A stretch of 64,000 nucleotides of DNA from the human T2T-CHM13v2.0 reference genome, Homo sapiens, in NCBI RefSeq assembly GCF_009914755.1, contig NC_060925.1; one strand, given 5' to 3'. Below, piece by piece: positions 11,389 to 19,623 of the stretch. The number at the start of each line of letters is the position of its first letter. The first letter of the stretch is position 1. The notes under the pieces were generated by a model. It was given only the letters and a program-made list of their open reading frames with translations. It searched no databases and was not told the origin of the DNA. Made by a program: the position numbers and the translations under genes.

Positions 11389-11888
11389 AAAATGAAGGCA
11401 GTGTGTTTTCATCCGCAGATATGCCCAGAACTCAGGAGATTTCCACCTGCTCTGTCAATAATACTAGGTCTGTGTGCTCAGTGATGCCAGACTGGCTGCC
11501 TATGTCTTCATTAGTTTAATTTATTCTTCCTTAGAATGGAACAAATACCAATAATCTCTGAATTCATCGGGACAACATTGAACAAAATTAATTAAGTAGC
11601 CATTTTAGATATATTCATAAAGATTGAGAAGGGATAGAAAAACAATTTTTTTTTGGTGAAGGAGAGAGATGAAGGAGATTATTGAAGGGCTACTGCATTT
11701 AGGAAGTACAGAAGTACAGCATGCAATGAGCTACGTGGAGGGAAAAAGGGGCTATTTTTATTTTCATTGTTTTGATTTTTAGTGTAAGAATGAAATGTGC
11801 CAGTGAAGTAAAAAATCATAGTTGCCAGGAAAACCAAGTTCTCTGTGTTTCATATTTTGTCTTAGAATCTTATATTGGGAGTGATTAC

Positions 11889-12322
11889 TTTCATGTGCGT
11901 CCGTGTGAAGAGACCACCAAACAGGCTTTGTGTGAGCAATAAAGCTGTTTATTTCACCTGGGTGCAGGTGGGCTGAGTCTGAAAAGAGAGTCAGCGAAGG
12001 GAGATAGAGGTGGGGCCGTTTTATAGGATTTGGGAAGGTAATGGAAAATTACAGTCAAAGGGGGTTGTTCTCTGGTGGGCAGGGGCGGGGGTCACAAGGT
12101 GCTCAGTGGGGGAGCTTCTGAGCCAGGAGAAGGAAATTCACAGGGTTAATCACTCAGTTAAGGTGGGGCAGGAACAAATCACAATGGTGGAATGTCATCA
12201 GTTAAGGCGGGGCAGGGCCTTTTCACTTCTTTTGTGATTCTTCAGTTACTTCAGGCCATCTGGGCGTATATGTGCAAGTCACAGGGGATGCGATGGCTTG
12301 GCTTGGGCTCAGAGGCCTGACA
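11889..12322 (-). mobile_element. HERV-H 3' LTR (LTR7)
   Basis: Reverse complement TGTCAGGCCTCTGAGCCCAAGC...GGACGCACATGAAA; preceded on the - strand by PPT AGAAGGCAGGAA (12323-12334); AATAAA on the - strand at 11948-11953. Confidence 0.97.
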
Positions 12323-12484
12323 TTCCTGCCTTCTTATATTAATAAGAAAAATAAAACAAAATAGTGTTGAAGTGTTGGGGCGGCGAAAATTTTTGGGGGG
12401 TGGTATGGAGAGAGAATGGGCGATGTTTCTCAGGGCTGCTTCAAGCGGGATTAGGGGCGGCGTGGGAACCTAGAGTGGGAGAGA

Positions 12485-12780
12485 TTAAGCTGAAGGCAGA
12501 TCTTGTGGTAAGGGGTGATATTGTGGGGACGTTAGAAGAAACATTTGTTGTATAGAATGATTGGTGATGGCCTGGATACGGTTTTGTATGAATTGAAAAA
12601 CTAAATGGAATAAGAGAAGGAGAAAAACAGATATAAAAGGACTAAGAATTGGGAGGACCTAGGACATCTAATTAGAGAGTGCCTAAGGAGGTTCAGCATA
12701 GTCCTGCCAGCAAAGATTATTTATTTACTTCAAGAGTTAAGAGTGGCAGTTTGAGGATAGCACGAGGAGATATCAGCTGT
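12485..12780 (-). pseudogene. env: HERV-H env C-terminal remnant (most of env deleted)
   Basis: - strand reads ...QMFLLTSPQYHPLPQDLPSA* ending at 12485, which is the HERV-H Env tail; upstream boundary approximate. Confidence 0.75.
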
Positions 12781-12959
12781 GATGGCTTGGAGAAACAGTG
12801 TAAACCGGCAGTGTAAACAAGAGCAGGGCATGTATGAGTAGTTGAGAATGGTGAATAGGAGTATGACTAGACAGAAGATAGTAGGGATGACAAGTTATTT
12901 GGGGGCACAGTTTAAGTTCGTCTGGTGTCTGGAATGAGACTGGGGCCTAATAAAAAGGA

Positions 12960-15131
12960 GCTCAAATGGGCTGTACCTTGTAGCATTCCGAGGACAGGCC
13001 TGAATTCTGAGAAGGGAAAGTGGTAAAAGTATTGTCCAGTGCTTTTTAAGTTGGTGGCTGAGCTTGGTGAAGTGTGTTTTTAAAAGACCTTTAGTCCGTT
13101 CTACTTTTCTTGAAGATGGAGGACTGTAAGGGATATAAAGGTTTCAATGAATACAAGAGCCTGAAAAACTGCTTGGCCGATTTGACTAATAAAGTCTGGT
13201 CTGTTATCAGACTGTATAGAGGTGGGAAGGCTAAACTGAGGAATTATGCCTGACAGAAGGGAAGAAATGACTGCGGTGGCCTTCTCAGACCCTGCAGGAA
13301 AGGCCTTTACTTATTCAGTGAAAGTGTCTATTTAGACTAAGAGGTATTTTAGTTTCCTGACTCGGGGCATGTTGAGTAAAGCTAATTTGTCAGTCCTGGG
13401 TGGGGGCAAATCCTCGAGCTTGATGTGTAGGGAAGGGAGGGGGCCTGAATAATCCCTGAGGAGTAGTAGAAGAGCAGATGGAACACTGAGAAGTTATTTC
13501 CTTGAAGATAGATTTCCACGATGGAAAGGAAATGAGAGGTTCTAAGAGGTGGGCTAGTGGCTTGTACTATAGCATAGCCTGCCTTTGCTGGTGTGTGGCG
13601 ATTAGGCCGGATGGAACCGCCATCAATAAATCAAGCGTGATCAGGGTGAGGAACAGGAAAGAAGGAAATATGGGGAAATGGGGTGAATATCAGGTGGATC
13701 AGAGAGATACAGTCATGAGGGTCAGGTGTGATATCAGGAATAATGTGGGAGGCCAGACTGAAGTCTGGGCCAGGAACAATGGTAATTGTGGGACTTAACA
13801 AAGAGTGAGCACAGCTGAAGAAGCCGGGGAGCAGAAAGTATATGCGTCAGATATGAGGAAGAAAATAGATTTTGGAAGTTATGCGAAATGTAGAGCATGA
13901 GTTGAGCATAGATTGTGATTTTTAGGGCCTCTGAAAGTATTAAAGCAGTGGCAGCTGCTGCACGCAGACATGAGGGCTAGGCTAAAACAGTAAGGTCAAG
14001 TTGTTTGGACAGAAAGGCTACAGGGTGCGGTCCTGGCTCTTGTGTAAGAATTCTGAGTGCACTAACTATGCCTAGGAAGGAAAAGAGTTGTTGTTTTGTA
14101 AGGGATTGAGGTTTGGGAGATTAATCGGACATGATCAGCAGGGAGAGCACGTGTGTTTTTATGAGAATTATGCCAGGATAGGTAACAGATGAGGATGAAA
14201 TTTGGACTTGACTGAAGTAATGGGGGCTGTCTGTGAAGCCTTGCCGCAATACAGCCCAGGTAATTTGCTGAGCCTAATGGGTGTCAGGGTCAGTCTAAGT
14301 GAAAGCAAAGAGAGGCTGGGATGAAGGGTGCAAAGGAATAGTAAAGAAAGCATGTTTGAGATCCAGAACAGAATAATGGGTAGTAGAGGGAGGTATTGAG
14401 GATAGGAGAGTATATGGATTTGGCACCACAGGGTGGATAGGCAAAACAATTTGGTTGATAAGGCGCAGATTCTGAACTAACTTGTAAACCTTGTCTGGTT
14501 TTAGGACAGGTAAAATGGGGTAATGGTAAGGAGAGTTTATAGGCTTTAAAAGGCCATGCTGTAGCAGGCGAGTGATAACAGGCTTTAATCCTTTTAAAGC
14601 GTGCTGTGGGATGGGATCTTGACATTGAGTGGGGTAAGGGTGATTAGGTTTTAATGAGATGGTAAGGGGTGCATGATCGGTCGCCAAGGAGGGAGTAGAG
14701 GTATCTTATACTTGTGGGTTAAGGTGGGGGGATACAAGAGGAGGATGCAAAGGAGGCTTTGGATTGGGAAGAAGGGTGGCAATGAGGTGTGGCTGTAGTC
14801 CAGGAATAGTCAGGGAAGCAGATAATTTAGTTAAAGTGTGTCAGCCTAATAAGGGAACTGGGCAGGTGGGGATAACTAAAAAGGAGTGCTTAAAAGAGTA
14901 TTGTCTAAGTTGGCACCAGAGTTGAGGAGTTTTAAGAGGTTTAGAAGCCTGGCTGTCAATACCCACAACAGTTATGGAGGCAAGGGAAACAGGCCCTTGA
15001 AAAGAAGGTAATGTGGAGTGGGTAGCCTCCGTATTGATTAAGAAGGGGACGGGCTTACCTTCCACTATGAGAGTTACCCGAAGCTCAGCGTCCGTGATGG
15101 TTTAGGGGGCTTCCGAGGCGATCGGGCAGTG
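12960..15131 (-). pseudogene. pol: HERV-H pro-pol remnant (protease, RT, RNase H, integrase), disrupted
   Basis: ORF 14841-15065 is protease with DTG changed to NTE (FLINTEATHS). ORF 14295-14687 is the RT N-terminus (SPYHYPILPVLKPD, QNLRLIN, VLDLKHAFF), ending at a TGG->TAG stop. After LRQGFTDSPHYFSQ the YxDD segment is deleted. Integrase-like residues (DTFT, IQSDN) lie near 13150-13350. Confidence 0.9.
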
Positions 15132-16351
15132 TCAGTCTTCAGCTGCTAAGCTGAGAAGATCTGGGAAGGAGTCAGTCAGAGAGCCTTGGGCCAGAGTTCC
15201 AGGGGCTCTGGGAGTGGCTGCCAGGTGAGTTGAACAGTCCGATTTTCAGTGGAGTCCCGCAGAGATGAGACGCGGCTTAGGAGGAATCCCGGGCTGCGGG
15301 CATTCCTTGGCCTGGTGGCCAGATTTCCGTCACTTGTAGCAAGCTCCTGTGGGAGGAGGTTCTGGAGGAACACCTGGCTGCTGCAGTTCAGGCGTTTGGA
15401 AGTTCTTGTGTGCTGGAGATGTGGCTGGGGTTTGTCTCACAGTGGAGGCAAGGAATTGCAACATTTTCTATTATTGTACACCTTGAAGGTGGGTTAATTA
15501 AGTCCTGTTGTGGGGTTTGAGGGCCAGATTCTAATTTTTGGAGTTTTATTTAATGTCAGGAGCAGATTGGGTAATAAAATGTACATTGAGAATAAGACGG
15601 CCTTTTGACCTTTTAGGGTCCAGGGCTGTAAAGCGTCTCAGGGTTGCTGCCAAACGAGCCATGAACTGGGCTGGGTTTTTATATTTGATGAAAAAGAGCC
15701 TAAACACTTCTGATTTGGGATAAAGAAAAAGGAGCATTAACCTTGACTATGCCTTTAGCTCCAGCCACCTTTTTAAGAGTAAATTGCTGGGCAGGTTGGG
15801 GAGGGCTAGTCACAGAACGAAACTGTAAGCCAGACCGGGTGTGAGGAGGGGAGGTGATAAAAGGATTATAGGGTGGAGGAGCGGAGGCTGAGGAAGAATT
15901 GGGACCTAGCTCGGCCTGGCGAGGAGCAGCCTGGTGAGGAGGGGAGAGGTCAGATAGGTCTGTAGAAAAGGAAGATTAGAAAGACTCAGCGACGCTTGGG
16001 GTTGGGACTGAGGGGACAGGCGGGAGGGAAAGAAGGAAGATTTGGGACGAGTTGCATTGGGCACAGAGACTAGGAAGGGACTGATGTGTAAAAGAATGCC
16101 TGGACGTCAGGCACCTCAGACCGTTTGCCTATTTTACGACAAGAATTATTTAGATCTTGCAGAATGGAAAAATTCAAAGTGCCATTTTCTGGCTATTTGG
16201 AACTACTGTCGAGTTTGTATTGGGGTCAAGCGGCATTGCAGAAGAAAATAAGGCATTTAGGTTTTAGGTCAGGTGAGAGTTGAAGAGGTTTTAAGTTCTT
16301 AAGAACACAGGCTAAGGGAGAAGGAGAAATAGAAGATGGAAGCTTGCCCAT
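15132..16351 (-). pseudogene. gag: HERV-H gag remnant
   Basis: ATG at 16351 gives MGKLPSSISPSPLACVLKNLKPLQLSPDLKPKCLIFFCNAA* (Trp->TGA); capsid fragment NPAQFMARLAATLRRFTALDP...HFITQSAPDIK (15546-15737); ends ...FPDLLSLAAED* at 15132. Confidence 0.9.
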
Positions 16352-16374
16352 AGTGAAGGAGGCAAGCCCAGAGA

Positions 16375-17079
16375 AAAGAGTAGAGACACGGAGAAGGGGT
16401 GGGGGGTTCTTGCCCTCCAGAAAAGCAGAGAAGGGGTCGGGGCACAGAGATACGAGGTCGTGGCATGGAAATAAGGGATCAGAGCACAGAGATATAAGAG
16501 GTTGGGGCACGGAAATAAGGGATCGGGGCACAGAGATATAAGAGGTTGGGGTGCGGAAATAAAGGATCAGGGCACAGAGATATAAGAGGTTGGGGCACTT
16601 GCCCCACTCCTAGAAAAGCGGGATTTGCTGCTAACGGTGAAGGAGAAAGGGTAGAGACAATGAGAGAAGGGGTTGGGGTACTTGCCCCTCCCCCAGAAAA
16701 ACAGGACTTGCCGCTAAGGGTGAAGGAGAAGGGATAGAGACATGGAGAGAAGGGGTTGGGGTACTTGCCTCTCCCCCAGAAAAGTGGGACTTGCCACTAA
16801 GGGTGAAGGAGAAGGGGTTGAGGGGTACTTGCCCCTCCCCCAGAAAAGCGGGACTTGCCACTAAGGGTGAAGGAGAAGGGGTTGAGGGGTTCTTGCCCCT
16901 GCCCCAGAAAAGCAGAGAAGGGGTAGAGACACGCAGAGAAGGGGTTGGGGTACTTGCCCCTCCCCCAGAAAAGCGGGACTTGCCGCTAAGGGTGAAGGAG
17001 AAGGGGTTGAGGGGTTCTTGCCCCTGCCCCAGAAAATCAGAGAAGGGGTAGAGACATGGAGAGAAGGGGTTGGGGTACT
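16375..17079 (-). repeat. Tandem repeats of the HERV-H 5' leader
   Basis: Five copies of a ~65-125-bp unit containing CTTGCCCCTCCCCCAGAAAAGCGGGACTTGCCGCTAAGGGTGAAGGAGAAGGGGT, and four copies of a ~45-bp unit containing GGCACAGAGATATAAGAGG. Confidence 0.9.
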
Positions 17080-17197
17080 CTCCCTTGCGAGATCAATCCC
17101 CTGTCCTCCTGCTCTTTGCTCCATGAGAAAGATCCACCTATGACCTCAGGTCCTCAGACCGACCAGCCCAAGAAACATCTCACCAATTTCAAATCCG
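17080..17197 (+). other. Inverted segment of the HERV-H leader (the PBS-to-splice-donor part of exon 1, on the strand opposite to the provirus)
   Basis: + strand reads CTCCCTTGCGAGATCAATCCCCTGTCCTCC...CACCAATTTCAAATCCG, which is HERV-H sense leader sequence, while all flanking provirus is on the - strand. Confidence 0.88.
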
Positions 17198-17210
17198 AGT
17201 CACGGCACCA
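17193..17210 (-). promoter_or_regulatory. Primer-binding site, tRNA-His
   Basis: Reverse complement TGGTGCCGTGACTCGGAT, an 18-nt complement of the tRNA-His 3' end, 2 nt from the 5' LTR. Confidence 0.95.
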
Positions 17211-17212
17211 AA

Positions 17213-17646
17213 TTTTATGTACGTCTGTGTGAAGAGACCACCAAACAGGCTTTGTGTGAGCAATAAAGCTGTTTATTTCACCTGGGTGCAGGTGGGCTGA
17301 GTCTGAAAAGAGAGTCAGCGAAGGGAGATAGGGGTGGGGCCGTTTTATAGGATTTGGGAAGGTAATGGAAAATTACAGTCAAAGGAGGTTGTTCTCTGGT
17401 GGGCAGGGGCGGGGGTCACAAGGTGCTCAGTGGGGGAGCTTTTGAGCCGGGAGAAGGAAATTCACAGGGTTAATCACTCAGTTAAGGTGGGGCAGGAACA
17501 AATCACAATGGTGGAATGTCATCAGTTAAGGCGGGGCAGGGCCTTTTCACTTCTTTTGTGATTCTTCAGTTACTTCAGGCCATCTGGGTGTATATGTGCA
17601 AGTCACAGGGGATGCAATGGCTTGGCTTGGGCTCAAAGGCCTGACA
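17213..17646 (-). promoter_or_regulatory. HERV-H 5' LTR (LTR7) promoter, firing leftward
   Basis: 10 transitions relative to the 3' LTR and no indels; TATA (CCTATAAAA on the - strand, 17343-17351); GC/GT boxes (GGGGCGGGG, GGGTGGGG). Confidence 0.95.
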
Positions 17647-18338
17647 ATTACCAAGATCAGAAATATTTGTTGAATGAATAAGTGATCTCCCAGCACTTCA
17701 TCAAAAGCAAATTAGGAAGACTGATTTGCCATCAGTATCAGAATTCCCAAGGTTTTCTATCTTCCTATCTCTGAATGGATCAGACTCACAATGGAGACAC
17801 AGATCACAGTGTCCTCTCTGTACTGTTGACCTTGCTTCTGATCCAGAAAGCCTGCAATTCCCACTGAGTCTACAGTTTTGAAAAGATAGACAGTCATTCC
17901 AACACCTAACAGGAGTCCACAAATCACACCATGTCCATGTTTTCACGTGAATGGGAAAAGAGTGGGAAGAGAATAAGAGGTATGCTGGCGATAACAGGAT
18001 AGGCCCAATAGAGAGCCCTGAGATCAGGAATCTGAACAGACTTGCAGGGTTAGCAGAAAGGGCTAAGTAGGTCAGAAACCAGAGGCTTGATGTTGAAAGA
18101 AAGGGAGGATAGGACCTATTTATAGAAAGTAGAAAAGCCAAACTAAAGTCAGTATCTGACTCCTTCTTCATAGGCTTAGCCATGTTCCAAACTGGGTTGA
18201 TACTGGCCCATTTAACGGTGAGCAGAGTAGTGAAGTAATTCCAGCCAATCCCTGGAAAACGGATTATTAGCAGAGCATGCCAACAGTTTTGGTGAGTTCT
18301 GTTCTGGGTCAGTAAACAGTACTTAAGAATATTAAAGG

Positions 18339-18450
18339 TAGAGTGACCAACTGCCCCAGTTTTCCCTGAACTGAAGGTTTCCTGAAATGTAGGACTTTCA
18401 GTGCTAAAACCAGGATAGTTCTGGGCAAACCTGAATAGTCGGTTGCCCTA
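18339..18450 (+). mobile_element. MER81-type hAT MITE
   Basis: TAGAGTGACC...GGTTGCCCTA terminal inverted repeats; 8-bp TSD ATTAAAGG/ATTAGGGG. Confidence 0.8.
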
Positions 18451-18474
18451 ATTAGGGGTCACAGCAAGACTGGA

Positions 18475-19450
18475 TTCATTTTTTTTTTTTTTGGACAAAC
18501 ACTTACTGAGATCCTGCACTGTGCCAAGTACTACACTAAGCCTTTATAAAACAAAAAGTTCCTGGAGAAGCTTGCAATATGGTGATTGAATAAGGCATTG
18601 ACTAAATAACACAAATGCTGTAGTGCACCCTGCAGTGGACCCCTTCAGGACTGAGGCCCATCCTTCCCTAGCTGGTGGGAGTGTTGCCTACTAATGGCTC
18701 ACTGCTGAGTCTGTTCTAGTAATCACCCTCTACTGAAGAAAGCTTTCCTGCTCAAGGTTGTATCTCCTACCTGGAGAGTCTTGATGCAGTGATGGCCAAT
18801 GTGAGTTACAAAGGTCCAGCCCTCCTGTTCCATTCCAGGCAACTTCAAGGGCCATTCTAGCTCCAGTGCACCCTATTGGCTCATGAGATGCCTGCTTCAA
18901 CTGCATCACAGTTCAACTCCTCCTTGTGCCTCTCTCACACACGTTGATTGTTCCTAGGATTCCTCACCAACATACCTCTTTTAAACAAACTTCAGAGTCC
19001 CAGAGTCAGTCCCCAGGGAAGCCAACCTGTGACCAACATCTAACATTGCAACTGTGCCAGGTGCTCAGAGGGAAAGGTGCCTAGCACTGTGGGAACCTGA
19101 GAGAGAAAGAGATCTGACCTAATCAGCACATCATGAGTGAACAGGAATTAACTAGGCAAACAAGAAAGGCAACGTGTTCTAGGCACAGCCAATGGCATGA
19201 ACAATGGCCCTGTAGTGGAGAAGACCATTATGGTGATGAGGAGGGACCGAATGTGACCCAAGCATTGACAGTAATAGGAGCAGGCAGGCTAAAAGCTAAG
19301 GCCACAGAGGCAGCCCGCCAGGTCAAGGGATGGAGGATTTTCTATATCCTAAGAGCAATGAGAGGCCAGTGAAGGCTTTTAGGCAGGGGAGTAACAGGAC
19401 CCTACAGATCCCCAAGTGTAGGGGATGAAATTTGCAAGATGCCACAGTTA
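18475..19450 (-). mobile_element. L2 fragments, interrupted by an ERVL LTR
   Basis: TTCATT...CAAACACTTACTGAG...TGTGCCAAG L2 3' end on the - strand; continues 19040-19450 (GAAGGCTTTTAGGCAGGGGAG). Confidence 0.55.
18619..19034 (+). mobile_element. LTR16-family ERVL solo LTR
   Basis: GGCCATTCTAGCTCCAG...ACTGCATCACAGTTCAACT...CAGAGTCAGTCCCCAGGGAAGCCAACCTGTGAC. Confidence 0.65.
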
Positions 19451-19623
19451 CCTTAGAGCCAGTAGCAAGCAAGGATAATAGAAGGCTGGACACTGGCCCA
19501 GGTCTTATGCGCCAACCCCCTCCCCTGGCCACTCCCCCAACACCTAGGGCCAGTATCAGCCTAGTTTGGAACATGGCTAAGCCTATAAGCAGGGGGTCAA
19601 AGAGCTTCTGCCAAATCAATTAA

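What the first reader, a model, noticed from the sequence alone, without database searches (positions are those of the whole stretch)
17080..17197. HERV-H with an inverted first-exon leader: a possible trans-antisense RNA against its own family
Seen: the provirus is on the - strand, but 17080-17197 reads as HERV-H sense leader on the + strand. The right junction is a 5-bp microhomology: ATCCG is both the end of the exon (..TCAAATCCG) and the reverse complement of the PBS end (CGGAT). This points to a template switch. Known: in ordinary HERV-H this segment follows the PBS and ends at the major splice donor (CCG|GTAAG), and nearly all LTR7-driven transcripts share it. Inference: the 5' LTR and TATA are intact, so RNA from this locus would carry 118 nt complementary to the common first exon of hundreds of HERV-H RNAs, ending exactly at their splice donor. 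It could form intermolecular dsRNA (ADAR/Dicer/MDA5 substrate) or mask the donor in pluripotent or tumour cells. I know of no description of this, but cannot search.
Basis: partly seen in the sequence, partly recalled or inferred. Interest (0 to 1): 0.8.

Follow-up and report, generated by a model that had tools for sequence, protein, structure and literature searches.

The report
Recurrent leader inversion in HERV-H proviruses
A 118-base stretch beside the primer-binding site of a human endogenous retrovirus copy really is flipped, and two other copies carry a flip with the same right-hand junction that seems to have arisen separately, so it looks like a repeated copying error of reverse transcription rather than a regulatory device.

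Summary
Window 17080-17197 is the HERV-H leader in sense on the + strand, inside a provirus that lies on the - strand (11889-17646). In 38 of 39 other HERV-H 5' ends examined, the leader has the opposite orientation relative to LTR and PBS. The right junction is the 5-nt overlap ATCCG, shared by the PBS 3' end and the last exon bases.

The inversion is not unique. Exhaustive pattern scans of the assembly find this right junction at 3 loci (chr1, chr16, chr3), against 764 normal junctions. The three copies have different left junctions, each unique in the genome, and different flanks. Their LTRs fall in three separate clades (AU test p = 2.7e-36). They share no derived leader substitution.

Best reading: the same template-switch error happened repeatedly during reverse transcription, each time giving a dead-end provirus without the splice donor.

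The trans-antisense function is unsupported. A published table scores this LTR (7u2) as not highly transcribed (RNA-seq over 2 fpkm) and outside the top GRO-seq septile in H1 cells, with no H3K4me3 or H3K27ac call. That table also mis-annotates the LTR as "solo".

The parts
11884..11888 (.). Target-site duplication (ATTAC on +, GTAAT in proviral sense), copy next to the 3' LTR
   Evidence: The same 5 nt are found at 17647-17651.
11889..12323 (-). 3' LTR (LTR7, 7u2 type)
   Evidence: 98% identical to the 5' LTR over 434 nt. Sister to the 5' LTR in the tree.
12324..16379 (-). HERV-H internal region (short, deleted form of the provirus)
   Evidence: Collinear with the chr3 provirus at 84-91%. Window 15800-16379 is 86-94% identical to other loci.
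16380..17079 (-). Tandem-repeat array of the pre-gag region, in proviral sense (periods 44, 64, 83, 125)
   Evidence: Homologous arrays in normal copies have the same orientation as their LTR.
17079..17080 (.). Left junction, where the repeat array (...GGGGTACT) meets the start of the inverted leader (CTCCC...). There is no clean microhomology. The roughly 306 nt that normally lie between donor and array are missing.
   Evidence: Unique in the assembly.
17080..17197 (+). Inverted HERV-H leader, the part of the first exon between the PBS spacer and the splice donor. It is sense on the + strand, so antisense in any RNA made from the 5' LTR.
17178..17186 (-). Consensus-like 5' splice site created on the proviral sense strand by the inversion (TTG|GTGAGA; GT at 17183-17182)
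   Evidence: Read. Its use is not tested.
17193..17197 (.). Right junction: the 5-nt overlap ATCCG, which is both the end of the leader and the complement of the PBS 3' end
   Evidence: The same junction is at chr16 and chr3.
17193..17210 (-). Primer-binding site for tRNA-His (18 nt)
   Evidence: Its complement, apart from the terminal CCA, is identical to the 3' end of tRNA-His(GTG) genes of the same genome.
17211..17646 (-). 5' LTR (7u2), full length. TATAAAA at 17349-17343 and AATAAA at 17277-17272, in sense.
   Evidence: Published label 7u2.
17647..17651 (.). Target-site duplication, copy next to the 5' LTR

Best explanation
The locus is a two-LTR HERV-H provirus of the young 7u2 type. Its leader, from just after the PBS spacer to the last base before the splice donor, was copied in reverse orientation, and about 0.3 kb downstream of the donor was lost.

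I read this as a product of two template switches during the reverse transcription that made this copy. One switch uses the 5-nt complementarity between the PBS 3' end (...CGGAT) and ATCCG at the splice donor. [quoted passage not shown] The other switch falls at the PBS edge, where the annealed tRNA would stall the polymerase, and it lands further downstream.

The same error seems to have happened independently in at least two, probably three, HERV-H lineages (chr1, chr16, chr3). Each time it gave a provirus without the major donor and left no daughter copies.

Shown: the inversion, its recurrence, the different left junctions, the different LTR clades, and the absence of daughters.

Inferred: that the event took place during reverse transcription, which strand switched, and that the locus has no function of its own.
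For: (1) Orientation. 38 of 39 other loci are normal. The right junction is found at exactly 3 places by a 25-nt pattern with up to 3 mismatches (control 0). A looser gapped pattern (PBS, 0-40 nt, inverted leader end) finds the same 3 places. The normal junction is found 764 times.

(2) Independence. In the LTR tree of 44 rows, the three copies sit in three separate clades, each with 100/100 support. The AU test rejects a single clade (p = 2.7e-36).
- The window LTR is 96% identical to more than 10 normal copies, but only 75-79% to the chr16 and chr3 LTRs.
- There are 0 alignment columns where all three inverted leaders share a state against the majority of 38 normal leaders.
- The chr3 leader carries 6 variants found only in normal copies of its own LTR clade, in 0 of 14 other normal copies.

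(3) Separate integrations. The flanks differ, and the target-site duplications are GTAAT (window) and CTTCA (chr16).

(4) Left junctions. They differ but cluster within about 20 nt of the PBS edge.
- The window junction stops before the 8-nt spacer.
- The chr16 junction stops after the spacer.
- The chr3 junction stops 12 nt into an inverted second copy of the PBS.
- Each is unique in the genome.

(5) The duplicated, inverted PBS part in chr3 requires copying, not a flip.

(6) A deletion starts at the donor in all three: at least 306 nt in the window, 228 nt in chr3, and through to env in chr16.

(7) ATCCG on the sense strand is rare. There is one other site in the window provirus, one in chr3, and none in chr16.

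(8) Inversions are a recognised class of defective HIV-1 proviruses: 6% of 531 sequences (PMC6235535, passages) and 2 of 78 non-duplicate proviruses (PMC9278108, passages). PMC6235535 describes proviral defects in general as arising during reverse transcription.
Against: - Nothing here dates the inversions relative to integration, because no ape orthologues could be searched.
- Five nucleotides is a short overlap.
- The window's left junction has no clean microhomology. The chr3 and chr16 left junctions have only 1-3 nt, or imperfect matches.
- Independence of the window and chr16 events rests mainly on the LTRs. HERV-H LTRs are reported to recombine between lineages (PMC8912925). The two leaders differ at only 3 of 118 positions.
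- The chr3 target-site duplication is ambiguous.
- The identity of the intermediate template is not addressed by any result. It could be the co-packaged RNA or a second minus strand.
- Folding gives no support for a special structure of the leader (z = -0.01).
Confidence: 0.62

Rival explanations
1. Single origin. One ancestral HERV-H acquired the inversion and spread as a small subfamily. The three copies later lost different stretches to the left of the inverted piece and acquired different LTRs by recombination.
For: The right junction is identical at all three loci. The window and chr16 leaders are 97.5% identical. LTR7 lineages are reported to exchange blocks by recombination (PMC8912925).
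Against: The LTRs fall in three strongly separated clades, and one clade is rejected at p = 2.7e-36. The three leaders share no derived substitution. The chr3 leader has 6 variants specific to its own clade, spread across the 118 nt. No two copies share a left junction, and each left junction is unique. This model also needs three independent deletions that all start within about 20 nt of each other.
Confidence: 0.08
2. Rearrangement after integration. Replication-fork template switching (of the FoSTeS/MMBIR type, or quasi-palindrome-driven) at each locus separately, guided by the short inverted repeats between the PBS region and the end of the leader.
For: An inversion with an adjacent deletion and short microhomology is the usual signature of such events (general knowledge). 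The U5 end plus PBS start is complementary to the leader's end over about 10 nt, in addition to the 5-nt overlap (seen in the fold).
Against: It requires three hits at the same junction among about 770 paralogous sites, and none at neighbouring positions. The junction coincides with the PBS 3' end, a landmark of reverse transcription that has no meaning for chromosomal replication. The left ends cluster at the PBS edge.
Confidence: 0.17
3. The locus is, or acts as, a source of RNA antisense to the common first exon of HERV-H. This RNA would form double-stranded RNA or mask the donor in pluripotent or tumour cells.
For: The 118 nt are 97-99% complementary to many leaders. The 5' LTR is complete, with its TATA box. 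The 7u2 subfamily is reported active in epiblast and naive lines (PMC8912925). KLF4 binding is scored at this LTR. The hub's table lists a RefSeq enhancer feature at 16983-17812, whose source I could not check.
Against: In the published H1 table, RNA (the over-2-fpkm call), GRO-seq (top-septile call), H3K4me3 and H3K27ac are all scored 0 for this LTR. The hub's table shows no transcript over the provirus. A consensus-like donor 14 nt into the segment could remove most of it from mature RNA (untested). The two other inverted copies and many antisense-oriented copies would give the same complementarity. The structure is explained without any function.
Confidence: 0.04
4. Assembly artefact of the T2T sequence.
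For: None found.
Against: An independent assembly (hg38), as annotated in PMC8912925, has the same total element length (5757 nt). Its repeat annotation breaks at the same place, with a 193-nt gap between the 'truncated' element and the 'solo' LTR. Two other loci show the same junction.
Confidence: 0.01

Closest known systems
Ordinary HERV-H (RTVL-H) provirus with LTR7-type LTRs
   Same: Two LTRs with a 5-bp target-site duplication, a PBS for tRNA-His, the 118-nt leader, the pre-gag tandem array and the internal region all match other copies at 86-99%.
   Different: The leader is reversed. The GTAAG that follows the leader in normal copies (recalled to be the major splice donor) and about 306 nt after it are missing.
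Defective HIV-1 proviruses with internal inversions
   Same: An inverted stretch, often with a deletion, lies inside an integrated two-LTR provirus. PMC6235535 attributes proviral defects in general to errors of reverse transcription (passages seen).
   Different: These are germ-line copies millions of years old. The same junction recurs in three copies, and it sits exactly at the PBS 3' end. I did not see junction sequences for the HIV cases.
Errors of strand transfer and non-homologous template switching in retroviral vectors (Temin laboratory work of about 1990-91; recalled, not read here)
   Same: Rearrangements with short microhomology that arise in a single replication cycle, some involving mis-placed strong-stop DNA transfer.
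   Different: Those reports concern deletions and insertions. A recurrent inversion anchored at the PBS end and splice donor was not found in print by my searches.
5' inversions of LINE-1 insertions by twin priming (recalled, not read here)
   Same: An inversion with a small deletion or duplication at the junction and microhomology, made during reverse transcription, and seen repeatedly in a family.
   Different: The mechanism is target-primed reverse transcription on the chromosome, not tRNA-primed synthesis inside a particle. The breakpoints vary, whereas here one junction is fixed.
Double-stranded RNA from endogenous retroviruses ('viral mimicry') and natural antisense transcripts
   Same: RNA complementary to retroviral transcripts could pair with them.
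   Different: No evidence of transcription of this locus was found. In the known cases the complementarity comes from bidirectional transcription, not from an inverted piece inside a sense transcript.

Membership tests
HERV-H provirus (LTR7 group) | Two LTR7-type LTRs flanked by a short target-site duplication | tested here: met
   The LTRs at 11889-12323 and 17211-17646 are 98% identical. The duplication is GTAAT on both sides.
HERV-H provirus (LTR7 group) | PBS complementary to the 3' end of tRNA-His | tested here: met
   The complement of window 17193-17207 is identical to the 3' end of tRNA-His(GTG) genes: 10 pattern matches, one confirmed by ARAGORN. The last 3 nt pair with the added CCA (general knowledge).
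HERV-H provirus (LTR7 group) | Leader in sense after the PBS, ending at the donor CCG|GTAAG | tested here: not met
   The leader is inverted and GTAAG with the following ~306 nt is absent. The element is a rearranged member, not a different family.
LTR7u2 subfamily (Carter et al. 2022) | Placement of the LTR in the published 7u2 clade | tested here: met
   Supplementary files 1, 2, 5 and 6 of PMC8912925 list hg38 chr1:233688773-233689204 as 7u2. I did not re-derive this placement.
Propagating HERV-H variant with inverted leader | Two or more copies sharing both junctions and forming one clade | tested here: not met
   Each left junction is unique. One clade is rejected.
Inversion made by template switching during reverse transcription | Inverted piece inside an otherwise collinear two-LTR provirus, with an adjacent deletion | tested here: met
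Inversion made by template switching during reverse transcription | Microhomology at the junctions | tested here: inconclusive
   The right junction has 5 nt at all three loci. The left junctions have none (window), 1-3 nt (chr3) or imperfect homology (chr16).
Inversion made by template switching during reverse transcription | Copying rather than cut-and-flip (sequence present twice) | tested here: met
   The chr3 copy has 12 nt of the PBS both direct and inverted. The window copy itself shows no such duplication.
Inversion made by template switching during reverse transcription | Present from the moment of integration | not testable with these tools
   This needs orthologous loci in other apes, and only the human assembly was searchable.
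Trans-acting natural antisense RNA | The locus is transcribed through the inverted segment | tested here: not met
   The published H1 table scores RNA 0, GRO-seq 0, H3K4me3 0 and H3K27ac 0. The RNA and GRO-seq calls are thresholds (over 2 fpkm; top septile), so weak transcription is not excluded. Naive cells and embryos are not covered per locus.
Trans-acting natural antisense RNA | Duplex formation with target RNAs, or an effect on them | not testable with these tools
   No expression, editing or crosslinking data could be queried.

The most novel reading that the evidence does not exclude
In naive or epiblast-like cells, where 7u2 LTRs are reported to fire, this provirus (and perhaps the chr16 and chr3 copies) would make an RNA carrying 118 nt antisense to the first exon shared by HERV-H transcripts. 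That RNA would pair with those transcripts at their splice donor, giving double-stranded RNA or changing their splicing. In that case a recurrent reverse-transcription error would have created a family-wide antisense regulator.
Probability: 0.04. Interest if true: 0.75.

Novelty: new variant of a known kind. Interest (0 to 1): 0.33.

Why it matters
Three apparently independent copies with the same junction point to a preferred mis-step in HERV-H reverse transcription. The junction lies at the PBS 3' end, the landmark where plus-strand strong-stop DNA ends. This is a fossil record of how that step failed, and it can be tested in vitro and in ape genomes.

There is also a practical consequence. 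The inversion breaks repeat annotation. A published HERV-H catalogue lists this full two-LTR provirus as one "solo" LTR plus one "truncated" element. Its regulatory calls were therefore made as if for a solo LTR.

Nothing suggests that the flipped segment does anything.

Tried and rejected
- Leader folding. I folded the normal leader and the rearranged 5' end to look for a structure that would explain the junction or give the RNA a special shape. Both fold no better than shuffled sequence (z = -0.01 and 0.56).
- Read-through of the tRNA beyond the 18 nt. The leader's last 10 nt resemble the tRNA-His T-arm in 9 of 10 positions, which could lengthen the homology. However, the junction bases in all three copies are those of each copy's own leader type, and chr3 would need two extra changes. 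I do not rely on this idea.
- Literature on the locus. The pair HERVH + KCNK1 gave one paper with nothing on this locus. Five searches for a described HERV-H leader inversion, or for PBS-anchored proviral inversions, gave nothing relevant. These searches cover only the held library.
- Naming the LTR subfamilies of the chr16 and chr3 copies from the published tables. I gave this up because I could not convert T2T to hg38 coordinates reliably.
Its closest normal relatives are therefore known only from the hit table, not from the tree.
- The chr3 target-site duplication could not be settled.

Full report
**What is in the window**

A HERV-H provirus lies on the - strand from 11889 to 17646.
- Its LTRs (11889-12323 and 17211-17646) are 98% identical.
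- They are flanked by the same 5 nt, GTAAT in proviral sense.
- Read in proviral sense, the 5' LTR is followed by two bases and then an 18-nt PBS (17210 down to 17193).
- The complement of the PBS equals the 3' end of the tRNA-His(GTG) genes of this genome.
- Directly after the PBS, 17197 down to 17080 is the reverse complement of the HERV-H leader.
- To the left, the sequence continues at 17079 with the pre-gag tandem array (16380-17079), in normal proviral orientation.

**Is it really inverted?**

I used the 118 nt to search the window's own assembly.
- Of 1025 first-look candidates, 40 were scored. The 39 places other than the window itself matched at 97-99%.
- In the 19 fetched loci, 18 have the leader in the opposite orientation relative to LTR, PBS, array and internal region.
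- Adding 20 further 5' ends, found through an LTR search, gives 38 normal of 39.
- A normal copy (L017) reads PBS ...CTCGGAT, an 8-nt spacer, the leader ending ...CAAATCCG, then GTAAG.

The overlap ATCCG/CGGAT at the right junction is real, and so is the position of the leader's end next to GTAAG. That GTAAG is the major splice donor is recalled knowledge, not tested here.

The 306 nt that follow the donor in L017 have no match anywhere in the window. The inversion therefore comes with a deletion.

**Not an assembly error**

Carter et al. 2022 (PMC8912925; supplementary files 1 and 2 seen through term hits and one table part) list in hg38:
- a "truncated" 7u2 element at chr1:233683448-233688579;
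- a "solo" 7u2 LTR at 233688773-233689204.

Together these span 5757 nt, the same length as in the T2T window. The 193-nt gap between them falls on the end of the array, the inverted leader and the PBS. The inversion thus exists in a second assembly, and it has split the published annotation of a complete two-LTR provirus.

**Not unique**

- A 96-nt query across the right junction matched over its full length at only three places. These are the window, chr16:66369336-66369431 (98%) and chr3:181010932-181011027 (88%). All other hits covered one half only (40 of 950 candidates scored).
- A 25-nt pattern with up to 3 mismatches gave the same three places and 0 control hits. The tool states that its pattern counts are whole.
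- A looser pattern (PBS end, 0-40 nt, inverted leader end) also gave only these three.
- The normal arrangement (PBS end, spacer, leader start) occurs 764 times at up to 3 mismatches.

**The three copies compared**

All three read PBS ...CGGAT followed at once by the inverted end of the leader. The left ends differ:
- Window: the inverted piece stops at the leader's first base and joins the tandem array.
- chr16: it runs on through the 8-nt spacer and then joins env. This leaves a 1.7-kb provirus with the target-site duplication CTTCA.
- chr3: it runs through the spacer and 12 nt into an inverted second copy of the PBS. It then joins the sequence 228 nt downstream of the donor.

Each left junction is unique in the assembly. 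The three left ends lie within about 20 nt of the PBS edge. The duplicated PBS part in chr3 shows that the piece was copied, not cut and turned.

**One origin or several?**

- In a maximum-likelihood tree of 44 LTRs, the three proviruses fall in three separate clades with 100/100 support. The 44 rows are the six LTRs of the three proviruses and 38 normal 5' LTRs. The window and chr16 5' LTRs pair with their own 3' LTRs, and the chr3 LTRs share a clade. The AU test rejects putting the three together (p = 2.7e-36).
- The window LTR is 96% identical to many normal copies, whose matches stop exactly at the junction. It is 75-79% identical to the chr16 and chr3 LTRs.
- The chr16 LTR's best other match is a normal copy at 92%. 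The chr3 LTR's best matches are normal copies at 94-95%.
- Across the 118-nt leader, no column has the three inverted copies sharing a state against the majority of 38 normal leaders.
- The chr3 leader carries six variants that occur only in normal copies of its own LTR clade, in 0 of 14 other normal copies. One lies six bases from the right junction.

I conclude that the chr3 event is independent of the other two. The window and chr16 events are probably independent of each other as well. That last step rests mostly on the LTRs, which in this family can recombine.

LTR-to-LTR identities are 98% (window), 93% (chr16) and 94% (chr3). They suggest different ages, which fits the published young age of 7u2.

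**How it most likely arose (inference)**

The PBS 3' end is where plus-strand strong-stop DNA ends. This is established knowledge of retroviral replication.
- Its last five bases can pair with ATCCG at the donor, 126 nt away on a plus-sense template such as the co-packaged RNA.
- Extension from that point would copy the leader backwards until it meets the tRNA-bound PBS of that template.
- A second switch to the minus strand further downstream would complete the molecule. This gives an inverted leader, a fixed right junction, variable left junctions near the PBS edge, and a deletion that starts at the donor.
- A mirror-image version during minus-strand synthesis gives the same product. In it, the polymerase copies back along a second minus strand stalled at the PBS. 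I cannot tell the two versions apart.

ATCCG is rare on the sense strand of these proviruses: at most one other site each. This helps to explain why this site is used.

The product lacks the donor and the region after it. In related viruses that region holds packaging signals (general knowledge). This fits the finding that none of the three left daughters.

**Rivals**

- A rearrangement after integration at each locus remains possible (I give it about 0.17). It does not explain why three hits among about 770 sites use one junction that is a landmark of reverse transcription.
- A single origin with spread is disfavoured by the trees and the unique left junctions.

**Function**

RNA from the 5' LTR would indeed carry the leader in antisense.
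- In the published H1 embryonic stem cell table, this LTR scores 0 for RNA (over 2 fpkm), 0 for the GRO-seq top septile, and 0 for H3K4me3, H3K27ac, NANOG and OCT4. It scores 1 only for KLF4. The RNA and GRO-seq calls are thresholds, so weak transcription is not excluded.
- The paper reports 7u2 as weakly active in H1, and active in epiblast and naive lines. I saw no per-locus data for those states, so expression there is open.
- On the sense strand, the inversion creates TTG|GTGAGA 14 nt into the segment. This site is about as close to the donor consensus as the family's own CCG|GTAAGA. If it were used, the mature RNA would keep only 14 antisense bases. This is untested.
- The rearranged 5' end does not fold better than shuffled sequence.

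I see no reason to assign a function.

**Compared with what is known**

Inversions inside integrated proviruses are a recognised class of defective HIV-1 genomes. Template switching by reverse transcriptase is textbook knowledge. What I did not find in print is a recurrent inversion anchored at the PBS end and the splice donor, in HERV-H or elsewhere (searches, limited to the held library). I therefore rate it a new variant of a known kind, of moderate interest to retrovirologists and of practical interest for annotation.

Noticed in passing
window 11889-17646 (hg38 chr1:233683448-233689204): A published HERV-H catalogue (PMC8912925, supplementary files 1 and 2) lists this complete two-LTR provirus as a 'solo' 7u2 LTR plus a separate 'truncated' element. 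The break falls at the inverted leader. Its regulatory calls were made as for a solo LTR.
   Followed up: partly
L037 2968-4698 (T2T chr16:66368968-66370698): A 1.7-kb HERV-H provirus with the same right junction. The inverted leader and spacer are joined directly to the transmembrane part of env. It has two LTRs 93% identical and the target-site duplication CTTCA.
   Followed up: yes
L036 1549-8812 (T2T chr3:181010549-181017812): A 7.3-kb HERV-H provirus with the same right junction. The inverted piece includes 12 nt of a second, inverted PBS, so the true PBS and its inverted partial copy flank the leader as an inverted repeat. Its target-site duplication is unclear.
   Followed up: yes
window 17188-17197 and L068 1502-1573: The last 10 nt of the HERV-H leader (TTCAAATCCG) match the tRNA-His gene just upstream of, and into, its PBS-pairing part (TTCGAATCCG) in 9 of 10 positions. 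This could be chance, or a trace of how the leader evolved. I could not link it to the inversion.
   Followed up: partly
L017 1490-1650 (-), and the same bases in the window: The U5 end plus PBS start (GAAATTTGGTG) is complementary to the leader just before the donor (CACCAATTTC). In the inverted copies this becomes a direct repeat 27 nt apart. The predicted fold pairs them, but it is no better than shuffled sequence (z = -0.01).
   Followed up: partly
window 16380-17079: The pre-gag tandem array is about 700 nt long here (periods 44, 64, 83, 125). In most of the other copies fetched it appears to span roughly 300-570 nt. I judged that range by eye from the hit coordinates and did not measure it systematically.
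   Followed up: no
window 16983-19472: The hub's table lists three adjoining RefSeq 'enhancer' features of equal length. They cover the inverted leader, the 5' LTR and the upstream flank. I could not find out which assay or cell type they come from.
   Followed up: no
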